Source: Thermoplasmatota archaeon
GTDB taxonomy: Archaea; Thermoplasmatota; Penumbrarchaeia; Penumbrarchaeales; Penumbrarchaeaceae
Reading direction: 5' to 3'
DNA: 64,000 nt
Assembly: GCA_025457865.1 (NCBI GenBank)
Contig: JALOTP010000001.1
Coordinates: 14,616 to 78,615 of the forward strand
In this document: positions 2,647 to 56,891 of the stretch, in pieces
How the letters are laid out: each line of letters opens with the position of its first letter
Numbering within the stretch: the first letter of the stretch is position 1
Notes under the pieces: generated by a model
The model's input: only the letters and a program-made list of their open reading frames with translations
The model's database searches: none
What the model was told of the DNA's origin: nothing
Program-made: the position numbers and the translations under genes

Positions 2647-2766
2647 GTCGGGGTGGCTCAGCCTGGTGGAGCGTCGGACTCATAGGGGCCCAAGGGGCAA
2701 TAATCAATGCTCCCAGGATCCGGAGAAATCCGGAGGTCGCGGGTTCGAACCCCGCCCCCGACACCA
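2647..2766 (+). tRNA. Elongator tRNA-Met(CAU) with 43-nt intron at 37/38 (2685-2727), CCA encoded
   Basis: Acceptor stem GTCGGGG/CCCCGAC+A+CCA; D-stem GCTC/GAGC; anticodon stem TCGGA/TCCGG; CAT at 2681-2683; T-arm GCGGG-TTCGAAC-CCCGC; the intron folds into a hairpin. It lacks initiator hallmarks. Confidence 0.92.
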
Positions 2767-50692: not shown

Positions 50693-51569
50693 GCTTAGGA
50701 ACTGGGTGACTGCGGGGGAGATCGCCTCCAAGGCCAGGGACCTAGGAGCTAGGATGGTGGAGGAAGATATCTCTTACCTTGAGGTGGCCGATGCCGTTGA
50801 GGACTTCATCGTCGAGAAGGGAGCGTTAGTGGGTTTTCCGGTCAATATTGCGGTGAACGATATCGCGGCCCACTACACACCGAGGCCAGATGAGAGGACG
50901 AAGTTCCGCTACGGTGACCTGGTGAAGATCGATGTCGGCGTCCATCTGGACGGTTGCATAGGCGATACGGCCAGAACGGTGGAGGTCGGCTCCGACACCT
51001 ACAGACAGCTCTCGCTAGCTTCCAAGAGGGCCCTTGAGTCCGCCCTGGAGCTCATCAGGGGCGGAATATCGCTCTCTTCCATTGGTTCGATCGTCGAGAG
51101 GACCATGAACTCCATGGGGTTCAGGCCCATAGTCAATCTGACCGGCCATTCCATAGAGAGGTACAACCTCCATGCCGGTATATCGGTTCCGAACTATGAT
51201 GATAGGGGGAGCGAGTTCCTACCATCCGGTACGATCCTGGCAATAGAACCATTCTCCACGACCGGAGTTGGCGAGGTAGTCTCTTACAAGAGATCGAACA
51301 TCTACCGCTTCGTGAGGCCCAGGTCCAAGCTGAAGGAAGAGCTGGAAAAGGTCTCAAGTATTGTGCAGGAGGGGTACCCCAAGCTCCCGTTCTCCGAGAG
51401 ATGGCTGGAGAAGAGACATCCTTCCTGCGAATCGGCCTTGAACGGACTGGTGAGGTCCGGGTCCGTCTATGCCTATCCCATCCTAAGGGAGACCTCCGGC
51501 GGCATGGTCGCCCAATGGGAGCATACTGTCCATGTTACGGATAAGGGGTGCAGGATACTCACAGCATGA
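50679..51569 (+). CDS. map: Methionine aminopeptidase type II
   Basis: 'FPVNIAVNDIAAHYTP', 'KIDVGVHLDGCIGDTA', 'NLTGH', 'AIEPF', 'QWEHT'. Confidence 0.97.
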   Translation: MEEAELRNWVTAGEIASKARDLGARMVEEDISYLEVADAVEDFIVEKGALVGFPVNIAVNDIAAHYTPRPDERTKFRYGDLVKIDVGVHLDGCIGDTARTVEVGSDTYRQLSLASKRALESALELIRGGISLSSIGSIVERTMNSMGFRPIVNLTGHSIERYNLHAGISVPNYDDRGSEFLPSGTILAIEPFSTTGVGEVVSYKRSNIYRFVRPRSKLKEELEKVSSIVQEGYPKLPFSERWLEKRHPSCESALNGLVRSGSVYAYPILRETSGGMVAQWEHTVHVTDKGCRILTA

Positions 51570-51579
51570 GGTGCTTGAT

Positions 51580-52725
51580 ATGGGTGCGACCAGGAGCGGT
51601 GCAAAAGCAAGGAAGGGCCTGACCTATGCCGGTTCGGGAGTGGATGTCTCTGCCGAGGGCAAAGCGATCAGGTCCCTGATAGATGCCCTTACCTTCCAAA
51701 GGAAGGGGACCGGCAGACCTGTGGACATAGGGGCGCATTTCACTGGACTTATAGACTTCGGCGACCGATACCTATCCCTCTGCACGGACGGGGTCGGTTC
51801 CAAGATGCTCATTGCAGAATCTTTAGGGAAGTGGGATACGGTCGGGATCGATTGTATGGCCATGAACGTCAACGATATGATATGCGTCGGGGCCGAACCA
51901 CTTGCATTCGTCGATTATCTTGCTGCCCATCAGCCTTCAGAAGAGGTCCTGTCGGAGATAGGCCGTGGTCTCAATGAAGGAGCAAGGAGGGCTAATCTAT
52001 CCATCATCGGTGGCGAAACGGCATCGCTCCCCGATATGGTCAAAGGGTACGACCTTGCAGGTACCTGCCTTGGTCATGTGAGGAAGGATGAGGTCATAAC
52101 TGGTGCGTCCATCAGAGAGGGCGATATCCTCATTGGCCTTCGTTCCAGCGGTCTGCATTCCAATGGTTTCTCCCTCGTGAGGAGGATAATTAAGGCCAAC
52201 CGCCTCGGGTACGATCTCACGCTCGAGGGGCTGGTGAATGGCAGCAGGTGGAAGAACCTGGAGGGCGGACCAGGGGACAAGGGATGCGTCGAAGCGTGGG
52301 CCAGCAAAGAGCCAGGTCTGACGATCGGCCAGGCTCTCCTTGAACCGACGAGGATCTATGTCAAGGAGGTCCTTACCATGCTTGGAAAGGTCAAGAAGGG
52401 CAGCGTCCACGGTCTTGCCCATATAACCGGTGGTGGCCTTAGGAACCTTGTCAGGCTCAAGAAGGGAGTGTCGTTCGTGATAGACAGGCCTATAGAGGTG
52501 CCCCCGATCTTCCATATGCTGCAGGTCCTGGGAGATGTCGATGAGGCTGAGATGTACAGCACGTTCAACATGGGCATGGGCTTCTGCCTGGTAGTCGATA
52601 AAAAGGTCTCGAAGGAGGTCAGAACGGCCTTGAAAGGCGCCGGTGCAATGGAGGTGGGGTACATATCCAAGGGGAGCGGTGTGCTTCTGAGGGGTGCCGG
52701 ATTGCATTTCGACGGTTATATCTGA
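51580..52725 (+). CDS. purM: Phosphoribosylformylglycinamidine cyclo-ligase (AIR synthetase)
   Basis: 'TYAGSGVD', 'TDGVGSK', 'GGETA', 'SSGLHSNGFSL', 'HITGGG', 'FNMGMG'. Confidence 0.97.
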   Translation: MGATRSGAKARKGLTYAGSGVDVSAEGKAIRSLIDALTFQRKGTGRPVDIGAHFTGLIDFGDRYLSLCTDGVGSKMLIAESLGKWDTVGIDCMAMNVNDMICVGAEPLAFVDYLAAHQPSEEVLSEIGRGLNEGARRANLSIIGGETASLPDMVKGYDLAGTCLGHVRKDEVITGASIREGDILIGLRSSGLHSNGFSLVRRIIKANRLGYDLTLEGLVNGSRWKNLEGGPGDKGCVEAWASKEPGLTIGQALLEPTRIYVKEVLTMLGKVKKGSVHGLAHITGGGLRNLVRLKKGVSFVIDRPIEVPPIFHMLQVLGDVDEAEMYSTFNMGMGFCLVVDKKVSKEVRTALKGAGAMEVGYISKGSGVLLRGAGLHFDGYI

Positions 52726-52952: not shown

Positions 52953-52968
52953 AAAAACCATTATATAT
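52953..52968 (+). promoter_or_regulatory. BRE/TATA promoter for tRNA-Lys, probably also for the rpoH operon
   Basis: AAAAACCA-TTATATAT; no second TATA between the tRNA and rpoH. Confidence 0.65.
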
Positions 52969-53026
52969 GAAATCGAACATGCCGTGTCGGTCTTGACCGC
53001 ATCGGGTAGTGGGAATGGTAAGTTCT

Positions 53027-53143
53027 GGGTCCGTAGCTCAGCTAGGTAGGACGTTAGGCAGCACTTTAGCGGCCTTCTTCCCTAGATAGAGCGTCTGGCT
53101 TTTAACCAGATGGCCGGGGGTTCGAATCCCCCCGGACCCGCCA
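53027..53143 (+). tRNA. tRNA-Lys(UUU) with a 40-nt D-loop intron (53048-53087, position 20/21), CCA encoded
   Basis: GGGTCCG/CGGACCC+G+CCA; anticodon arm TCTGG-CTTTTAA-CCAGA; T-arm GGGGG-TTCGAAT-CCCCC; BHB with central CTAG/CTAG helix and GT^A, AT^A bulges. Confidence 0.92.
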
Positions 53144-53201
53144 ATCGTTCCTTACATCCCTTGATGCGACCCAGGATAGCACACCCGCAGGAGGTCGCCA
53201 C

Positions 53202-53459
53202 ATGCCGCGCTTCAACGTGATGGAGAACTACCTTGTACCCAAGCATACCATATTGACCAGCAAGGAACAGGAAAAGGTCCTTGCGGATTTCAATACAACT
53301 CCTTCGCAGCTACCCCAGATACCTCTCATAGACCCCTGCGCAAAGGCCATTGGGGCCAAGGCCGGGGACATAATAAAGATCGAACGCGAGAGCCCGACCG
53401 CAGGGACGAGCATCTACTACAGATTGGTCGTGGCAGAGTGGTCAACGGTCGATGAGTGA
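53202..53459 (+). CDS. rpoH: RNA polymerase subunit Rpo5 (H)
   Basis: 'LVPKHTIL', 'LPQI...DP', 'GDIIKIERESPTAG...YYRLV'. Confidence 0.97.
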   Translation: MPRFNVMENYLVPKHTILTSKEQEKVLADFNTTPSQLPQIPLIDPCAKAIGAKAGDIIKIERESPTAGTSIYYRLVVAEWSTVDE

Positions 53460-53477
53460 AGGGAAGGAGGGATAGTT

Positions 53478-56400
53478 TTGAAAGAGGTAGTGGAAGCATT
53501 CTTCAAGAGCAGGAACGTGATAAACCATCAGGTGGCGTCGTTCAACGATTTCCTCCCGACCCACGACAACCCCAAATCCAGGATGCAGAGGATAATTGAC
53601 TCCATCAGGATCGGGGAGGTCGACAACGAGCGCGGCCTAATAAGGCTCGACGTGGACAAGCTGGACGAGGAGAGCGTGGATATCAAACTCGGCCGGATCA
53701 CTGTAGGAACTCCCATTGTCAAGGAGGCCAACGGGGCCACGCACGACCTGACCCCTATGGAGGCCAGGCTTAGAGACCTGACATATTCCGCCCCCATATT
53801 CCTTGAGTTCACCATCATAGAGAACGGGGTTGACAGGGAGCCCGAGAAGGTCAAGATCGGCGACCTCCCCATAATGGTCAAGTCCAAGAGGTGCAACCTG
53901 CACCGTGAGATGGTAGGTCAGGACCGTACGCTCACGGACGACCAGTACTACAGGAAGCTGCAGGAACTGGGGGAGGACCCGCTTGACCCAGGCGGTTACT
54001 TCATCATCAATGGAACGGAGAGGTCCCTGATATCCCTCGAGGACCTGTCCCCCAACAGGGTGCTCGTAGAGTGGGAGGAGAAGTACGGGACCCCCGGCGC
54101 GGTAGCAAAGGTCTTCTCGCAGAAGGAAGGGTTCAGGGCCCTTACCTCGGTCGAGCTCAAGAAGGACAACATACTCATGGTGTCGGTACCGGCCGCACCC
54201 ACGCAGATCCCCCTCATCGTCCTCATGAAGGCCCTTGGCATGGATGCTGATGAGGACATCCACAGGGCGATCGTGTCCGATCCCAAGATGGACAACATCG
54301 TATATGCGAACCTTGAGGAATGTGGACTTGCCCACAGCGTTGCAACGATAGAGGATGCGTTGAACTATCTGGAGAAGAAGTTCGCCACGGGGCAGGCAAA
54401 GGAGTTCAGGGAGAAGAAGGTCGAATCCATCATAGACAAATCCCTTCTCCCACATCTTGGCGATCACAGGGACCAACGGATCAAGAAGGCCATATATCTG
54501 GGCAGGATAGCAAGGTCCGTTCTGGAGCTGAAGCTCGGTTATAGGGACCCGGATGACAAGGACCACTATGCCAACAAGAGGATATCCCTTGCAGGTGACC
54601 TGATGGAGGACCTTTTCAGGGTTGCGTTCACATCCCTGATGAAGGACCTAAAATACCAGCTGGAGAGGACCATCACAAGGAAGCGCAAGCTTCGTGTGTC
54701 ATCTTCCATAAGGCCCGACGTCCTGACCCAGAGGATGATACATGCCCTGGCCACCGGAAACTGGGTCGGAGGAAGGGATGGCGTATCACAGCTCCTTGAC
54801 AGGACCTGCAATATGGCCACAATCTCCCATCTTAGGAGGATCACTTCCCCACTTACCAGGTCCCAGCCCCATTTCGAGGCAAGGGACCTGCACCCGACAC
54901 AGTGGGGCAGGTTGTGCCCCAACGAGACCCCGGAAGGTCAGAACTGCGGTCTGGTCAAGAACCTGGCCCTCATAGTGGACATTTCCGAGGGCTATGATGA
55001 GAGGAAGCTAGAATCCACCCTCTTCGATATGGGGGTCAGGAGGATAGAGAAGGAGCTCACGGATGAATCGAAGGTCTATCTCAACGGTAACCTGATAGGG
55101 ATACACCATGACCCGAAGGGTCTGGTCGAGTCCATACGGAAGAGGAGGCGCCAGGGCTTCCTCGCGATGCCTCAGGAGAAGTCCTCGGAAATAAATGTGA
55201 GGTACAACCAGCAGATCAACTCCGTCATAGTCAACTGTGATGATGGCAGGGTTAGGAGACCTTTGTTCGCCCTGGAGAAAGGAGCGACGAAACTGACCGA
55301 GAGGATGAGGCAGTCGCTGGCCGAGTCGAAGATAACATGGGAGGACCTGGTCCAGCAGGGCGTCATCGAATGGATAGACGCCGAAGAGGAAGAAGACCTG
55401 TTCATAGCCATAGATGAGTCGCATCTGACCAACGACCAGACCCATATGGAGATAGACCCCATGGTGATCCTGGGGTCCTGCTCAGGCCTTGTATGCTATC
55501 CTTCCCATAACTCATCGCCCAGGATCACGATGGGTGCTGGAATGGCGAAGCAGTCACTGGGTCTCGGAGCATCCAACTACCGGATAAGGTGCGATACGAG
55601 AGGACATCTTCTCCATTATCCAGAAAGGCCTATGGTCCAGACCAAGACCATGGACTTCGTCAACTTCAATCAGAGACCGGGCGGTCAGAACTTCGTGGTG
55701 GCCGTGATGTCCTACCAGGGCTACAATATGGAGGACGCCCTCATATTCAACAAGGCTTCGATAGAAAGGGGCCTTGGAAGGTCCACGTTCATCAGGACCT
55801 ACCCGGTGGAGGAGAGAAGGTATCCAGGCGGCCAGGAGGACAGGATAGAGACCCCGAGCCCTGATGTGATGGGCGCCAGGGCCGAGGAGGCCTACAACTC
55901 CCTTGACGAGGACGGGATCATATCGCCCGAGTTCCAGGTCATGGGCAAGGACGTCCTGATTGGGAGGACATCCCCACCCAGGTTCCTGGAGGAGCACACG
56001 GACTTCCTCACCCCTCACAGAAGGAGGGAGACGTCCCTTACCGTCAGGCCTAGGGAGGAAGGCTATGTCGATACGGTCATGATCACTGAGTCCGAGAACG
56101 GGCTCAGGTTGGTCAAGGTCACCGTGAGGAGCGAGAAGGTCCCCGAAGTGGGTGACAAGTTCGCATCAAGGCACGGCCAGAAAGGTGTCATCGGTTACAT
56201 AGCCGGGCCAGATGAGATGCCGTTCACATCCGAAGGCATCGTTCCGGACCTCGTCACGAACCCCCACGCCATCCCTTCCAGGATGACCGTCGCCCATGTC
56301 CTTGAGATGATAGGTGGCAAGGTCGGTGCCATGGAGGGCAGGACCATAGACGGGACGGCCTTCTCGGGCGAACCTGAGGAGAGACTGCGTCATGAACTGG

Positions 56401-56891
56401 AGCAGCTCGGGTTCAAACCGACCGGCAAGGAGGTCATGTACGACCCCTTCACAGGAAAGAGGTTCAAGGTCGACCTATTCACCGGGGTCATATACTACCA
56501 GAAGCTCCACCACATGGTCTCCGGTAAGATGCATGTGAGGTCAAGGGGTCCGGTGCAGATCCTCACGAGGCAGCCCACAGAGGGACGTTCAAGACAGGGC
56601 GGTCTGAGGTTCGGTGAGATGGAGAGGGACTGCCTGATAGCCCACGGGGTGTCCATGGTCATCAAGGACAGGTTGCTCGATGAATCGGACGGGACCATCG
56701 AGTACGTCTGCGGAAACCCGAAATGCGGAAATGTGGCAATGCTCGATAAGCGCAACGCATTGAGATGCCCGGTCTGCGGTGAGACCGGAAACATCCATCC
56801 TGTCCAGACGAGCTATGCCTTCAAACTGCTCATGGACGAGCTGAAATCGATGTGCGTGGCCATGAGGTTGCAGTTGGAGGACCTCAAGTAG
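53478..56891 (+). CDS. rpoB: RNA polymerase subunit Rpo2 (unsplit B)
   Basis: 'GGYFIINGTER', 'CPNETPEGQNCGLVKN', 'GDKFASRHGQKG', 'RQPTEGRSRQGGLRFGEMERDC'; TTG start. Confidence 0.99.
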   Translation: MKEVVEAFFKSRNVINHQVASFNDFLPTHDNPKSRMQRIIDSIRIGEVDNERGLIRLDVDKLDEESVDIKLGRITVGTPIVKEANGATHDLTPMEARLRDLTYSAPIFLEFTIIENGVDREPEKVKIGDLPIMVKSKRCNLHREMVGQDRTLTDDQYYRKLQELGEDPLDPGGYFIINGTERSLISLEDLSPNRVLVEWEEKYGTPGAVAKVFSQKEGFRALTSVELKKDNILMVSVPAAPTQIPLIVLMKALGMDADEDIHRAIVSDPKMDNIVYANLEECGLAHSVATIEDALNYLEKKFATGQAKEFREKKVESIIDKSLLPHLGDHRDQRIKKAIYLGRIARSVLELKLGYRDPDDKDHYANKRISLAGDLMEDLFRVAFTSLMKDLKYQLERTITRKRKLRVSSSIRPDVLTQRMIHALATGNWVGGRDGVSQLLDRTCNMATISHLRRITSPLTRSQPHFEARDLHPTQWGRLCPNETPEGQNCGLVKNLALIVDISEGYDERKLESTLFDMGVRRIEKELTDESKVYLNGNLIGIHHDPKGLVESIRKRRRQGFLAMPQEKSSEINVRYNQQINSVIVNCDDGRVRRPLFALEKGATKLTERMRQSLAESKITWEDLVQQGVIEWIDAEEEEDLFIAIDESHLTNDQTHMEIDPMVILGSCSGLVCYPSHNSSPRITMGAGMAKQSLGLGASNYRIRCDTRGHLLHYPERPMVQTKTMDFVNFNQRPGGQNFVVAVMSYQGYNMEDALIFNKASIERGLGRSTFIRTYPVEERRYPGGQEDRIETPSPDVMGARAEEAYNSLDEDGIISPEFQVMGKDVLIGRTSPPRFLEEHTDFLTPHRRRETSLTVRPREEGYVDTVMITESENGLRLVKVTVRSEKVPEVGDKFASRHGQKGVIGYIAGPDEMPFTSEGIVPDLVTNPHAIPSRMTVAHVLEMIGGKVGAMEGRTIDGTAFSGEPEERLRHELEQLGFKPTGKEVMYDPFTGKRFKVDLFTGVIYYQKLHHMVSGKMHVRSRGPVQILTRQPTEGRSRQGGLRFGEMERDCLIAHGVSMVIKDRLLDESDGTIEYVCGNPKCGNVAMLDKRNALRCPVCGETGNIHPVQTSYAFKLLMDELKSMCVAMRLQLEDLK

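What the first reader, a model, noticed from the sequence alone, without database searches (positions are those of the whole stretch)
53027..53143. Non-canonical D-loop (20/21) intron in tRNA-Lys(UUU) of a Thermoplasmata-like archaeon
Seen: a 40-nt insertion in the D-loop forming a BHB. The central helix is CTAG(53042-45)/CTAG(53082-85), the bulges are GT^A and AT^A, and the inner helix is GGA/TCC plus an AGGC/GCCT hairpin. The outer helix is interrupted by unpaired A14-G15, so the motif is relaxed. Removing 53048-53087 gives a normal 77-nt tRNA-Lys. Established: non-37/38 introns are typical of lineages with broad-specificity (alpha-beta)2 or epsilon2 splicing endonucleases (Crenarchaeota, Methanopyrus, Nanoarchaeota, ARMAN), whereas most euryarchaea including Thermoplasma use homomeric EndA and 37/38 introns. 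Inference: this lineage has a broadened EndA or a recently transposed intron.
Basis: partly seen in the sequence, partly recalled or inferred. Interest (0 to 1): 0.62.

Follow-up and report, generated by a model that had tools for sequence, protein, structure and literature searches.

The report
Lysine tRNA gene with D-loop intron
This is a real, apparently essential lysine tRNA gene interrupted in its D-loop by a 40-base archaeal intron. The same intron sits at the same spot in well over a hundred related Thermoplasmata archaea, so it is old and typical of the group, although their splicing enzyme is of a type said to handle such introns poorly.

Summary
Window 53027-53143 (+) is tRNA-Lys(UUU) with a 40-nt insert (53048-53087) between U20 and A21. 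Removing it gives a 77-nt cloverleaf that ARAGORN calls tRNA-Lys(ttt). The unspliced gene is missed, or miscalled as Ala.

The insert has bulge-helix-bulge geometry. The 3' cut site lies opposite unpaired A14-G15, so the motif is relaxed (HBh'-like).

The intron is not recent. It is in 35 of 37 genomes of the organism's class, in 55 of 401 sampled genomes of the phylum, and in at least 119 species titled Thermoplasmata or Methanomassiliicoccales. The inner helix covaries, and intron length ranges from 30 to about 150 nt. Many relatives add T-loop and/or 37/38 introns; this genome has the one-intron form.

This is the only tRNA-Lys(UUU) found. AAA codons are used and RtcB is present. The only EndA is a 339-aa two-unit alpha'2 enzyme without the CSL, ASL or NEQ-type specificity loops, as in all 25 other intron-bearing genomes checked.

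So "recently transposed" is refuted, and "broadened EndA" has no sequence support. It is a new member of a known kind, of moderate interest.

The parts
52961..52968 (+). TATA-box-like TTATATAT, preceded by an A-rich BRE-like stretch; probable promoter of the pre-tRNA
   Evidence: Read from the sequence. It is conserved at the same distance upstream in family relatives. The promoter function is inferred.
52990..53018 (+). Conserved 5' leader block GTCTTGACCGCATCGGGTAGTGGGAATGG, function unknown
   Evidence: Identical or at most 2 changes in 26 of the 28 loci that hold it. Single copy in the genome. No Rfam match.
53027..53047 (+). Exon 1: acceptor 5' strand, U8 A9, D-stem 5' strand, and D-loop A14 to U20
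53036..53039 (+). D-stem 5' strand GCTC. It pairs with 53089-53092 and is the outer helix of the splicing motif, set 2 nt away from the central helix by A14 G15 (53040-41)
   Evidence: 100% paired in 94 sequences.
53042..53045 (+). Central 4-bp helix, 5' strand CTAG (exon; C16 U17 A17a G18)
   Evidence: It is invariant in the 30 relatives found by BLAST.
53046..53048 (+). 5' bulge GTA; predicted cut between 53047 and 53048
   Evidence: Geometry read. Across 94 distinct sequences the bulge is GTA in 71, GTT in 18, GTC in 3, GCA in 1 and GTG in 1. The cut position is inferred from the BHB rule.
53048..53087 (+). 40-nt intron at position 20/21
   Evidence: Homologous introns of 30 to about 150 nt lie at the same site.
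53049..53051 (+). Inner helix h' 5' strand GGA, pairing with TCC 53079-53081
   Evidence: Covariation seen as GGA/TCC, GAA/TTC, GGG/CCC, GGT/ACC, AGA/TCT and AAG/CTT.
53056..53075 (+). Intron hairpin AGGC...GCCT
53082..53085 (+). Central helix 3' strand CTAG (intron)
53086..53088 (+). 3' bulge ATA facing unpaired A14 G15 (a 3x2 internal loop); predicted cut between 53087 and 53088
   Evidence: In relatives found by BLAST the bulge is AAA or ATA.
53088..53143 (+). Exon 2: A21, D-stem 3' strand, anticodon arm (anticodon TTT 53101-53103), variable loop, T arm, acceptor 3' strand, G73 and the encoded CCA
53144..53182 (+). 3' trailer that can pair with the leader 52984-53019; it ends 7 nt before the rpoH Shine-Dalgarno sequence
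   Evidence: Duplex energy -35.6 kcal/mol, z = -2.7. The whole-region MFE is -90.3. Support in relatives is uneven.
53202..53459 (+). rpoH (Rpb5 C-terminal domain), followed by rpoB at 53478-56891. The tRNA sits directly upstream of the RNA polymerase operon

Best explanation
The locus is the functional, single-copy gene for tRNA-Lys(UUU) of a Thermoplasmatota archaeon. It is interrupted between U20 and A21 by an ancient, vertically inherited archaeal intron.

Proposed pathway:
1. Transcription starts at the TATA-like box about 60 nt upstream.
2. The pre-tRNA folds into a cloverleaf whose D-loop carries a helix-bulge-helix module. The module consists of the D-stem, two unpaired nucleotides (A14 G15), the 4-bp helix CUAG/CUAG flanked by the 3-nt bulges GUA and AUA, and the inner helix GGA/UCC.
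3. The genome's only splicing endonuclease is a two-unit alpha'2-type EndA (catalytic triad Y272/H280/K311 in the C-terminal unit). It cuts GU^A and AU^A.
4. RtcB joins the exons.
5. RNase P and tRNase Z trim the ends. CCA is encoded in the gene.

Shown here: gene anatomy, uniqueness, conservation, covariation, and the presence and type of EndA and RtcB. Inferred: the cuts themselves, the cutting enzyme, and how an alpha'2 enzyme tolerates the 3x2 internal loop at the 3' site.

One possibility is that A14 and G15 are held by their normal tertiary partners U8 and C48. That would leave AUA as an effective 3-nt bulge.
For: - Anatomy. The spliced form is called tRNA-Lys(ttt), 77 nt; the unspliced form gives no call.
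- No other tRNA-Lys(UUU) appears among the 40 Rfam or 43 ARAGORN tRNA calls of the genome. Only Lys(CUU) at C47 is found.
- AAA makes up 18 of 105 Lys codons in four neighbouring genes.
- The same intron site occurs in all 30 nearest relatives, with lengths of 30 to about 150 nt.
- It occurs in 35 of 37 genomes of the class, in 55 of 401 genomes of the phylum sample, and in at least 119 GTDB species.
- Inner-helix covariation: 0 of 500 shuffles reach the observed score, and slid-partner controls drop from 90% paired to 31-48%.
- EndA: one ORF with two PF01974 repeats plus PF02778. The model has pLDDT 87 and pTM 0.85. Its best structural matches are the fused M. kandleri beta-alpha EndA (TM 0.78), A. 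fulgidus alpha'2 and T. acidophilum alpha'2.
- All 25 other intron-bearing genomes examined also have a single two-repeat EndA ORF.
- RtcB scores 557.8 bits.
Against:
- Published assays show that A. fulgidus alpha'2 EndA hardly cleaves a BHB placed in the D-loop of A. pernix pre-tRNA-Thr(UGU) (PMC3241643).
- The EndA here has no CSL/ASL-like or NEQ-like insertion.
- The BHB conformation is 3.5 kcal/mol above the MFE, which slips the helix by one base pair.
- The assembly is 89% complete, so a second Lys(UUU) gene or a second EndA subunit in the missing part cannot be formally excluded.
Confidence: 0.85

Rival explanations
1. Splicing of this D-loop intron needs something beyond the ordinary alpha'2 enzyme. 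Candidates are a biochemically broadened EndA whose determinants are not the known loops, an accessory protein, or a second EndA-like subunit encoded in the unassembled part of the genome.
For: - Published in vitro data show that alpha'2 EndA from A. fulgidus cuts D-loop BHBs poorly (PMC3241643, PMC5829648).
- The 3' site here is a 3x2 internal loop, not a clean bulge.
- EndA of this family has lineage-specific features: a 21-aa deletion in the N-subdomain of the catalytic unit, a short insertion before the last strand, and Trp336 where classical euryarchaeal enzymes have Arg.
Against: - No CSL/ASL-type insertion is present. The loop at the CSL site is the 5-residue TDVDG, matching the EKGDL of A. 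fulgidus that was replaced in the chimera.
- The Tyr-to-His spacing is 8 residues, so there is no NEQ-type loop.
- The Trp/Arg alternative and the deletion do not track intron presence. Methanomassiliicoccales-type enzymes with Arg and without the deletion also serve intron-bearing genomes. Trp also occurs in lineages with an uninterrupted gene.
- 25 of 25 intron-bearing genomes show only one EndA ORF.
Confidence: 0.25
2. The insert is not removed, and the tRNA works with a 40-nt extra hairpin in its D-loop. Alternatively it is removed by a mechanism other than EndA.
For: No RNA data could be obtained. G18 and G19 lie in exon 1, so the D-loop/T-loop contact might in principle survive.
Against: - The insert varies from 30 to about 150 nt and is free in sequence.
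- The 4-bp helix, both 3-nt bulges and the adjoining helix are nonetheless kept exactly in BHB register.
- Relatives carry further inserts with the same kind of boundaries at 37/38 and in the T-loop.
- The insert is far too short for a group I or group II intron, and Rfam finds none.
Confidence: 0.04
3. The locus is a decaying tRNA pseudogene, and the working tRNA-Lys(UUU) lies in the unassembled 10% of the genome.
For: The assembly is 89% complete. Five expected anticodons were not found: Ser GCU, Glu CUC, Gln CUG, Val CAC and Arg CCG.
Against: - The exons are perfectly canonical and nearly identical across genera, while the intron interior drifts.
- 12 of 12 high-quality genomes of the class have the interrupted gene.
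- The same synteny next to rpoH is seen in relatives.
- No intron-less Lys(UUU) copy turned up in any of the relatives searched with the full gene.
Confidence: 0.03
4. The intron was recently acquired by transposition into this tRNA.
For: None found.
Against: - The same site is used across 9 families of the class and several families of other classes.
- Intron interiors have diverged with compensatory changes.
- No other copy of the intron exists in the genome at up to 4 mismatches.
Confidence: 0.01

Closest known systems
Methanopyrus kandleri pre-tRNA-Glu(UUC) intron at 20b/21 (HBh' motif in the D-loop; PMC5829648)
   Same: - It occurs in a euryarchaeal-grade lineage.
- The intron lies in the D-loop just before position 21.
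- The motif is relaxed on the D-stem side.
- The endonuclease lacks all three specificity loops. The best sequence and fold match of the EndA here is the fused M. kandleri beta-alpha enzyme 5x89.
   Different: - M. kandleri EndA is a two-gene (alpha-beta)2 heterotetramer. Here the two units are one polypeptide (alpha'2).
- The tRNA is Glu, not Lys.
- The M. kandleri case is a single species. Here the intron is shared by more than 100 species.
- The M. kandleri gene also carries a 37/38 intron, which this window's gene lacks (some relatives have one).
Aeropyrum pernix pre-tRNA-Thr(UGU) D-loop intron and other non-canonical BHB introns of Crenarchaeota and Thermoproteales (PMC3241643; Marck & Grosjean 2003 and Sugahara 2008, both from my own knowledge)
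   Same: It is a BHB-type intron in the D-loop of an expressed tRNA. It is removed by EndA without guide RNA or other factors, and it cleaves more slowly than 37/38 introns because of the tRNA core.
   Different: [quoted passage not shown] No equivalent loop exists here.
Two- and three-intron tRNA-Lys(UUU) genes of Methanomassiliicoccales and other Thermoplasmata
   Same: The gene is orthologous, with the same D-loop site and the same CTAG/CTAG core. I re-derived these forms from 153 genes: 58 have the D-loop intron only, and the rest add T-loop and/or 37/38 inserts. Earlier notes of this scan describe them in other genomes.
   Different: This window has the simplest version, with the D-loop intron only. 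Its EndA belongs to a divergent subgroup, 28-33% identical to the Methanomassiliicoccales-type homologs.
Canonical 37/38 hBHBh' introns of Euryarchaeota
   Same: The central 4-bp helix, the 3-nt bulges and the NN^N cut rule are the same. The same genome has four canonical introns, in Trp, Met, Ser(GGA) and Tyr.
   Different: The position is 20/21 rather than 37/38. The outer helix is separated from the 3' bulge by A14 G15.

Membership tests
Archaeal EndA-dependent (BHB) tRNA intron | 4-bp central helix between the two cut sites | tested here: met
   CTAG 53042-45 pairs with CTAG 53082-85. It is invariant in the 30 relatives found by BLAST.
Archaeal EndA-dependent (BHB) tRNA intron | 3-nt bulge at the 5' splice site, flanked by helices on both sides | tested here: met
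   GTA 53046-48 lies between the central helix and GGA/TCC. The flanking helix covaries.
Archaeal EndA-dependent (BHB) tRNA intron | Removal restores a canonical tRNA | tested here: met
   ARAGORN calls tRNA-Lys(ttt), 77 nt, only after removal of 53048-53087.
Archaeal EndA-dependent (BHB) tRNA intron | Spliced product and excised intron present in RNA | not testable with these tools
Strict hBHBh' motif (the substrate class of alpha4 and alpha'2 enzymes) | 3' splice-site bulge of exactly 3 nt, with the outer helix h directly adjacent and nothing unpaired opposite | tested here: not met
   ATA 53086-88 faces unpaired A14 G15 (53040-41), forming a 3x2 internal loop before the D-stem. The motif is therefore HBh'-like.
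alpha'2-type splicing endonuclease | One polypeptide with two tandem EndA units; catalytic Tyr/His/Lys only in the C-terminal unit | tested here: met
   The protein is 339 aa. PF01974 matches twice (84 and 19 bits in the genome search) and PF02778 also matches. The triad is Y272/H280/K311. The model aligns over its full length with 2GJW/1RLV (TMt 0.75-0.77) and 2OHC (TMt 0.81).
alpha'2-type splicing endonuclease | Forms a homodimer with two active sites | not testable with these tools
   Inferred from family membership only.
Broad-specificity EndA (CSL/L1 or ASL/L2 loop) | Lys-bearing insertion in the N-subdomain of the catalytic unit, at the site equivalent to A. fulgidus 174-178 (EKGDL) | tested here: not met
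   The equivalent beta-beta loop is the 5-residue TDVDG, with no Lys or Arg. The N-subdomain is 21 aa shorter than in Methanomassiliicoccales homologs. The loop site is defined in PMC3241643 and PMC3488258.
Broad-specificity EndA (NEQ/ARMAN-2 loop, L3) | Basic insertion between catalytic Tyr and His (15 residues in ARMAN-2) | tested here: not met
   The Tyr-to-His spacing is 8 residues, as in A. pernix, and it aligns without gaps.
Broad-specificity EndA | Trp instead of the second Arg as the bulge-recognition residue | tested here: met
   W336 (LEWTRP) aligns with the A. pernix alpha W in YLMIDWFRP. It is not diagnostic here, because W and R both occur in lineages with and without the intron.
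Recently transposed or mobile intron | Restricted to close relatives, or present in other copies in the genome | tested here: not met
   It is found in 35 of 37 genomes of the class and in other classes. It is single copy in the genome.

The most novel reading that the evidence does not exclude
[quoted passage not shown] This clade comprises the class of this genome plus Methanomassiliicoccales and allies. Its EndA has none of the three loops known to confer broad specificity.

If the enzyme alone does this, the accepted coupling between EndA architecture or loops and non-canonical introns is incomplete. Recognition may then use the folded tRNA core (U8-A14-A21, G15-C48) to turn the 3x2 internal loop into an effective bulge. 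That would be a mature-domain-assisted mode, otherwise ascribed to eukaryotic enzymes.
Probability: 0.35. Interest if true: 0.65.

Novelty: new member of a known kind. Interest (0 to 1): 0.42.

Why it matters
There are three practical and one conceptual point.

1. Annotation. Standard tRNA finders miss or mislabel this gene. Genomes of this clade will therefore appear to lack tRNA-Lys(UUU), and completeness or codon-capacity estimates will be wrong.

2. Mechanism. [quoted passage not shown] Here a whole clade with loop-less alpha'2 enzymes keeps such an intron in an essential, single-copy tRNA. A direct in vitro test with cloned components is now possible.

3. Evolution. The one-intron form in this genome is the simplest substrate of the family for that test, because relatives carry two or three introns.

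4. Limits. The kind of element is well known, and this instance adds one more member rather than a new principle.

Tried and rejected
- Literature: five full-text searches found no paper describing a D-loop intron in Thermoplasmata or Methanomassiliicoccales tRNA-Lys. The absence of a hit covers open-access text only.
- Other copies of the intron or the leader in the genome: none at up to 4 mismatches.
- Hidden interrupted tRNAs for the five missing anticodons: no further partial Rfam hits at E <= 1. A T-arm/acceptor scan and blastn of all tRNAs against the genome gave no candidates.
- BHB in the leader-trailer stem: none.
- Rfam family for the conserved leader: none.
- EndA features tracking the intron: Trp versus Arg at the recognition site, Tyr-His spacing, tail length and the N-subdomain deletion were compared between 25 intron-bearing genomes and 17 genomes with an uninterrupted gene. 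None discriminates.
- Search-pattern caveat: the exact-pattern scans force CTAG, A-N-A and GAGC. Conservation of those letters in loci L073-L191 is therefore by construction. I relied on the 30 BLAST-derived relatives for them. The pattern also undercounts: G040 and G028 carry the intron but do not match.

Full report
**1. Observation**

Window 53027-53143 (+) reads GGGTCCG TA GCTC AG CTAG GTA GGA...TCC CTAG ATA GAGC, followed by a normal anticodon arm (CTTTTAA), variable loop, T arm, acceptor 3' strand and GCCA.

- ARAGORN with default settings finds no tRNA in the window.
- Rfam's tRNA model matches only 53083-53132, at 30.4 bits, just above its gathering score.
- ARAGORN with introns allowed forces an anticodon-loop intron and miscalls the gene as Ala(ggc).
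- After removal of 53048-53087 the 77-nt product is called tRNA-Lys(ttt) with a regular cloverleaf. The unspliced form gives no call.

The minimum-energy fold of the 117-mer keeps acceptor, D, anticodon and T stems and places the insert as a hairpin in the D-loop (-53.1 kcal/mol, z = -2.9). That fold slips the central helix by one pair. The exact bulge-helix-bulge conformation costs 3.5 kcal/mol more (-49.6).

The mature D-loop is A14 G15 C16 U17 A17a G18 G19 U20 A21, so the insert lies at 20/21.

**2. Geometry**

Read 5' to 3', each strand shows the central helix followed by a 3-nt bulge, as in canonical 37/38 introns.

- The 5' site (GU^A) is a clean bulge between CUAG/CUAG and GGA/UCC.
- The 3' site (AU^A) lies between the central helix and the D-stem, but faces the two unpaired nucleotides A14 G15. 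It is therefore a 3x2 internal loop.
- In the usual nomenclature this is a relaxed HBh'-type motif, not a strict hBHBh'.

**3. Is the gene needed?**

- The genome (2.7 Mb, 108 contigs, 89% complete) yields 40 Rfam and 43 ARAGORN tRNA calls.
- The only other lysine tRNA is Lys(CUU) on C47.
- AAA accounts for 18 of 105 lysine codons in the four genes around the tRNA.
- Four other tRNA genes (Trp, Met, Ser-GGA, Tyr) have introns at the canonical position, so this is the only non-canonical intron detected.
- Five expected anticodons were not found. No further partial tRNA hits exist that would suggest more hidden genes.

**4. Relatives**

A BLAST search with the whole 117-mer over the 40 nearest genomes found full-length or split matches in nearly all. 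Extraction shows the same gene with an insert at the same place in all 30 loci returned. Lengths run from 30 nt in the second family of the order to 147-150 nt in another family of the class. The core CTAG|GTA|GGA...TCC|CTAG|A(A/T)A|GAGC is constant and the interior is free.

Further members of the class carry the D-loop intron plus a 37/38 intron. One genome has a weakened central helix (CTAG/CTGC). Three genomes of other classes have uninterrupted Lys genes.

Results of an exact pattern for the 3' junction plus anticodon:

| Scope searched | Genomes with a match |
|---|---|
| GTDB class of this genome | 35 of 37 (12 of 12 high-quality) |
| Even draw of the phylum | 55 of 401, in at least seven further families |

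The records in the last scan are titled Thermoplasmata, Thermoplasmatales, Methanomassiliicoccales, Methanomassiliicoccaceae, Methanomassiliicoccus sp. or Ca. Saliniplasma. For example, the same-genus genome G002 is an "uncultured Thermoplasmatales archaeon" MAG, and G304 is a Methanomassiliicoccales MAG.

Of 153 genes extracted, 58 have the D-loop intron alone, as here. The others add an insert of about 29-38 nt in the T-loop, an insert after position 37, or both.

In 18 genomes from 18 other families of the phylum, ARAGORN finds a tRNA-Lys(UUU) with no D-loop insert. One of these has a 13-nt canonical intron. Another is a closed 1.5-Mb genome whose EndA open frame is 299 aa, close to the length of the Thermoplasma enzyme.

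The intron is therefore old, vertically inherited in a large part of the phylum, and absent from the rest.

**5. Covariation**

I cut the motif out of 94 distinct genes, anchored at both splice sites, and counted pairs.

- The first three pairs of the inner helix are paired in 100%, 100% and 95% of sequences, with 7, 7 and 15 double-sided changes. Variants seen are GGA/UCC, GAA/UUC, GGG/CCC, GGU/ACC, AGA/UCU and AAG/CUU.
- Over the whole structure, 90% of cells are paired, against 80.5% in shuffles. None of 500 shuffles reach this or the covariation score.
- Paired cells fall to 31-48% when the 3' partners are slid by 1-3 columns.
- The central helix and D-stem never vary. For loci found by pattern this is by construction. 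For the 30 BLAST-derived loci it is an observation.

**6. The enzymes**

PF01974 matches twice in one open frame on contig C44. The protein is 339 aa, with an N-terminal EndA-N domain, a degenerate first catalytic-type domain and a strong second one.

- The catalytic Tyr, His and Lys are Y272, H280 and K311.
- An AlphaFold model built on 38 homologs has pLDDT 87 and pTM 0.85.
- It matches over full length the fused beta-alpha EndA of M. kandleri (5x89, TM 0.78), A. fulgidus alpha'2 EndA with and without RNA (TMt 0.75-0.77), and T. acidophilum alpha'2 EndA (TMt 0.81).

The three known specificity insertions are absent.

- The CSL/ASL site lies in the beta-beta loop before the "LxLSLxE" strand of the catalytic unit. 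This is EKGDL 174-178 in A. fulgidus, which was replaced to make the broad-specificity chimera (PMC3241643). Here that loop is the 5-residue TDVDG.
- The N-subdomain of the catalytic unit is 21 residues shorter than in Methanomassiliicoccales homologs.
- The NEQ/ARMAN-2 loop lies between the catalytic Tyr and His (PMC3488258). The spacing here is 8 residues, and the alignment with the A. pernix, M. kandleri and T. acidophilum enzymes has no gap there.

One crenarchaeal-type feature is present. W336 aligns with the Trp of A. pernix alpha, which replaces the second bulge-binding Arg of classical euryarchaeal enzymes (PMC3488258). It does not explain the intron. Among 25 intron-bearing genomes most have Arg there. 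Trp also occurs in lineages with an uninterrupted gene. Tyr-His spacing and overall architecture are the same in both groups. Every intron-bearing genome examined has a single two-repeat EndA ORF.

RtcB is present (557.8 bits).

**7. Comparison with published work**

[quoted passage not shown] Its loop-less EndA and A. fulgidus EndA remove it inefficiently, whereas A. pernix EndA removes it well (PMC5829648).
- A. pernix pre-tRNA-Thr(UGU) has a BHB in the D-loop. Wild-type A. fulgidus EndA "hardly cleaved" it, and insertion of the CSL cured this. The slow rate was attributed to steric hindrance by the tRNA core (PMC3241643).
- Reviews state that only (alpha-beta)2 and epsilon2 enzymes remove non-canonical introns (PMC6379350, PMC3488258).

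Against this background, a loop-less alpha'2 enzyme serving a D-loop intron of an essential tRNA in more than 100 species is unexpected. The element itself is nonetheless of a well-known kind.

I found no paper describing it in Thermoplasmata. Earlier notes of this scan describe the orthologous two- and three-intron genes in other genomes. I had reached the conservation result before reading them, and I re-derived the multi-intron forms independently.

**8. Mechanism and its status**

Shown:
- the gene, its uniqueness, the motif and its covariation
- the age and spread of the intron
- one alpha'2 EndA without known loops
- RtcB

Inferred:
- cuts at 53047/48 and 53087/88 by that EndA
- ligation by RtcB
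- transcription from the TATA-like box at 52961-68

Speculative: A14 and G15 may be taken out of the helix by their usual partners U8 and C48, with A21 joining U8-A14. The 3' site would then be presented as a 3-nt bulge.

No RNA data could be consulted.

**9. Surroundings**

The tRNA lies between purM (51532-52725) and rpoH-rpoB (53202-56891), with a methionine-aminopeptidase-type M24 peptidase further upstream. No promoter-like gap separates it from rpoH, whose Shine-Dalgarno GGAGG is at 53189-93.

- A 29-nt block of the 5' leader (52990-53018) is almost invariant across five genera of the family. It is far better conserved than the intron or the trailer, and it has no Rfam match.
- In this genome the leader can pair with the trailer over about 30 bp (-35.6 kcal/mol, z = -2.7). 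The cloverleaf then sits on a long stem that ends just before the rpoH ribosome-binding site.
- Support for this pairing in other genera is uneven, and the stem contains no BHB. This remains unexplained.

**10. Verdict**

- The finding is a new member of a known kind and is common in the closest relatives.
- Its interest lies in the mismatch with the accepted EndA-intron coevolution model, and in offering the simplest natural substrate for testing that model.

Noticed in passing
window 52984-53019 and 53144-53182: The 5' leader block GTCTTGACCGCATCGGGTAGTGGGAATGG is nearly invariant across five genera, unlike the intron and trailer. In this genome it can pair with the 3' trailer, forming a stem of about 30 bp under the cloverleaf that ends 7 nt before the rpoH ribosome-binding site. 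It might be a processing stem for a tRNA-rpoH co-transcript. There is no Rfam match and no BHB.
   Followed up: partly
G000 contigs, e.g. C95:18169-18243 (tRNA-Ile, 4 copies), C66:31780-31856, C80:5802-5888, C97:31925-32011, C31:4571-4645, C106:29770-29844: 20 of 43 tRNA genes are followed by 1-4 direct copies of their own last 15-21 nt, spaced about 110-170 nt apart. The 125-165-nt units between the copies are related across different tRNA loci (65-93% identity). They contain antisense T-arm-like strings such as GGATTCGAACCC. This looks like a family of miniature elements that insert at tRNA 3' ends. tRNA-Lys(UUU) has none.
   Followed up: partly
G000 C33:4628-4975, C80:5806-6001, C106:13782-14125: The first 15-25 nt of tRNA-Ser(TGA), tRNA-Leu(TAA) and tRNA-Thr(GGT) are repeated 110-270 nt upstream of the genes. 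Two of the intervening stretches share a CCCTTTT...AGG...AAAAAGCG string.
   Followed up: no
window 2647-2763 (+): A second tRNA gene lies in the window: tRNA-Met(CAU) with a 45-nt intron at the canonical position (Rfam 53.5 bits).
   Followed up: no
G000 C44:4686-5705 (-), EndA; alignment A2: EndA of this family lacks 21 residues (a beta-hairpin plus helix) of the catalytic unit's N-subdomain that Methanomassiliicoccales-type homologs have. It carries a 6-12-residue insertion before the last strand, and a disordered Arg-rich linker of about 25 residues between the two units (pLDDT below 50 at 183-193). The Trp/Arg alternative at the bulge-recognition position is scattered across the phylum.
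   Followed up: partly
L059-L061 and L072 (genomes G030, G034, G036, G032): In one family of the class the D-loop intron is 147-150 nt long and AT-rich, with an extended 7-bp inner helix (AGACGTT/AACGTTT). Whether it encodes anything, such as a small RNA, was not examined.
   Followed up: no
L068 (G028:C98): One genome of the class has a 30-nt D-loop intron whose central helix is weakened to CTAG/CTGC (3 of 4 pairs). It is either a tolerated variant or a decaying gene.
   Followed up: no
G000, whole genome: tRNAs for Ser(GCU), Glu(CUC), Gln(CUG), Val(CAC) and Arg(CCG) were not found in the 89%-complete assembly. ARAGORN's tRNA-Pro(ggg) with a 161-nt intron at C80:725-977 is probably a false call.
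   Followed up: no
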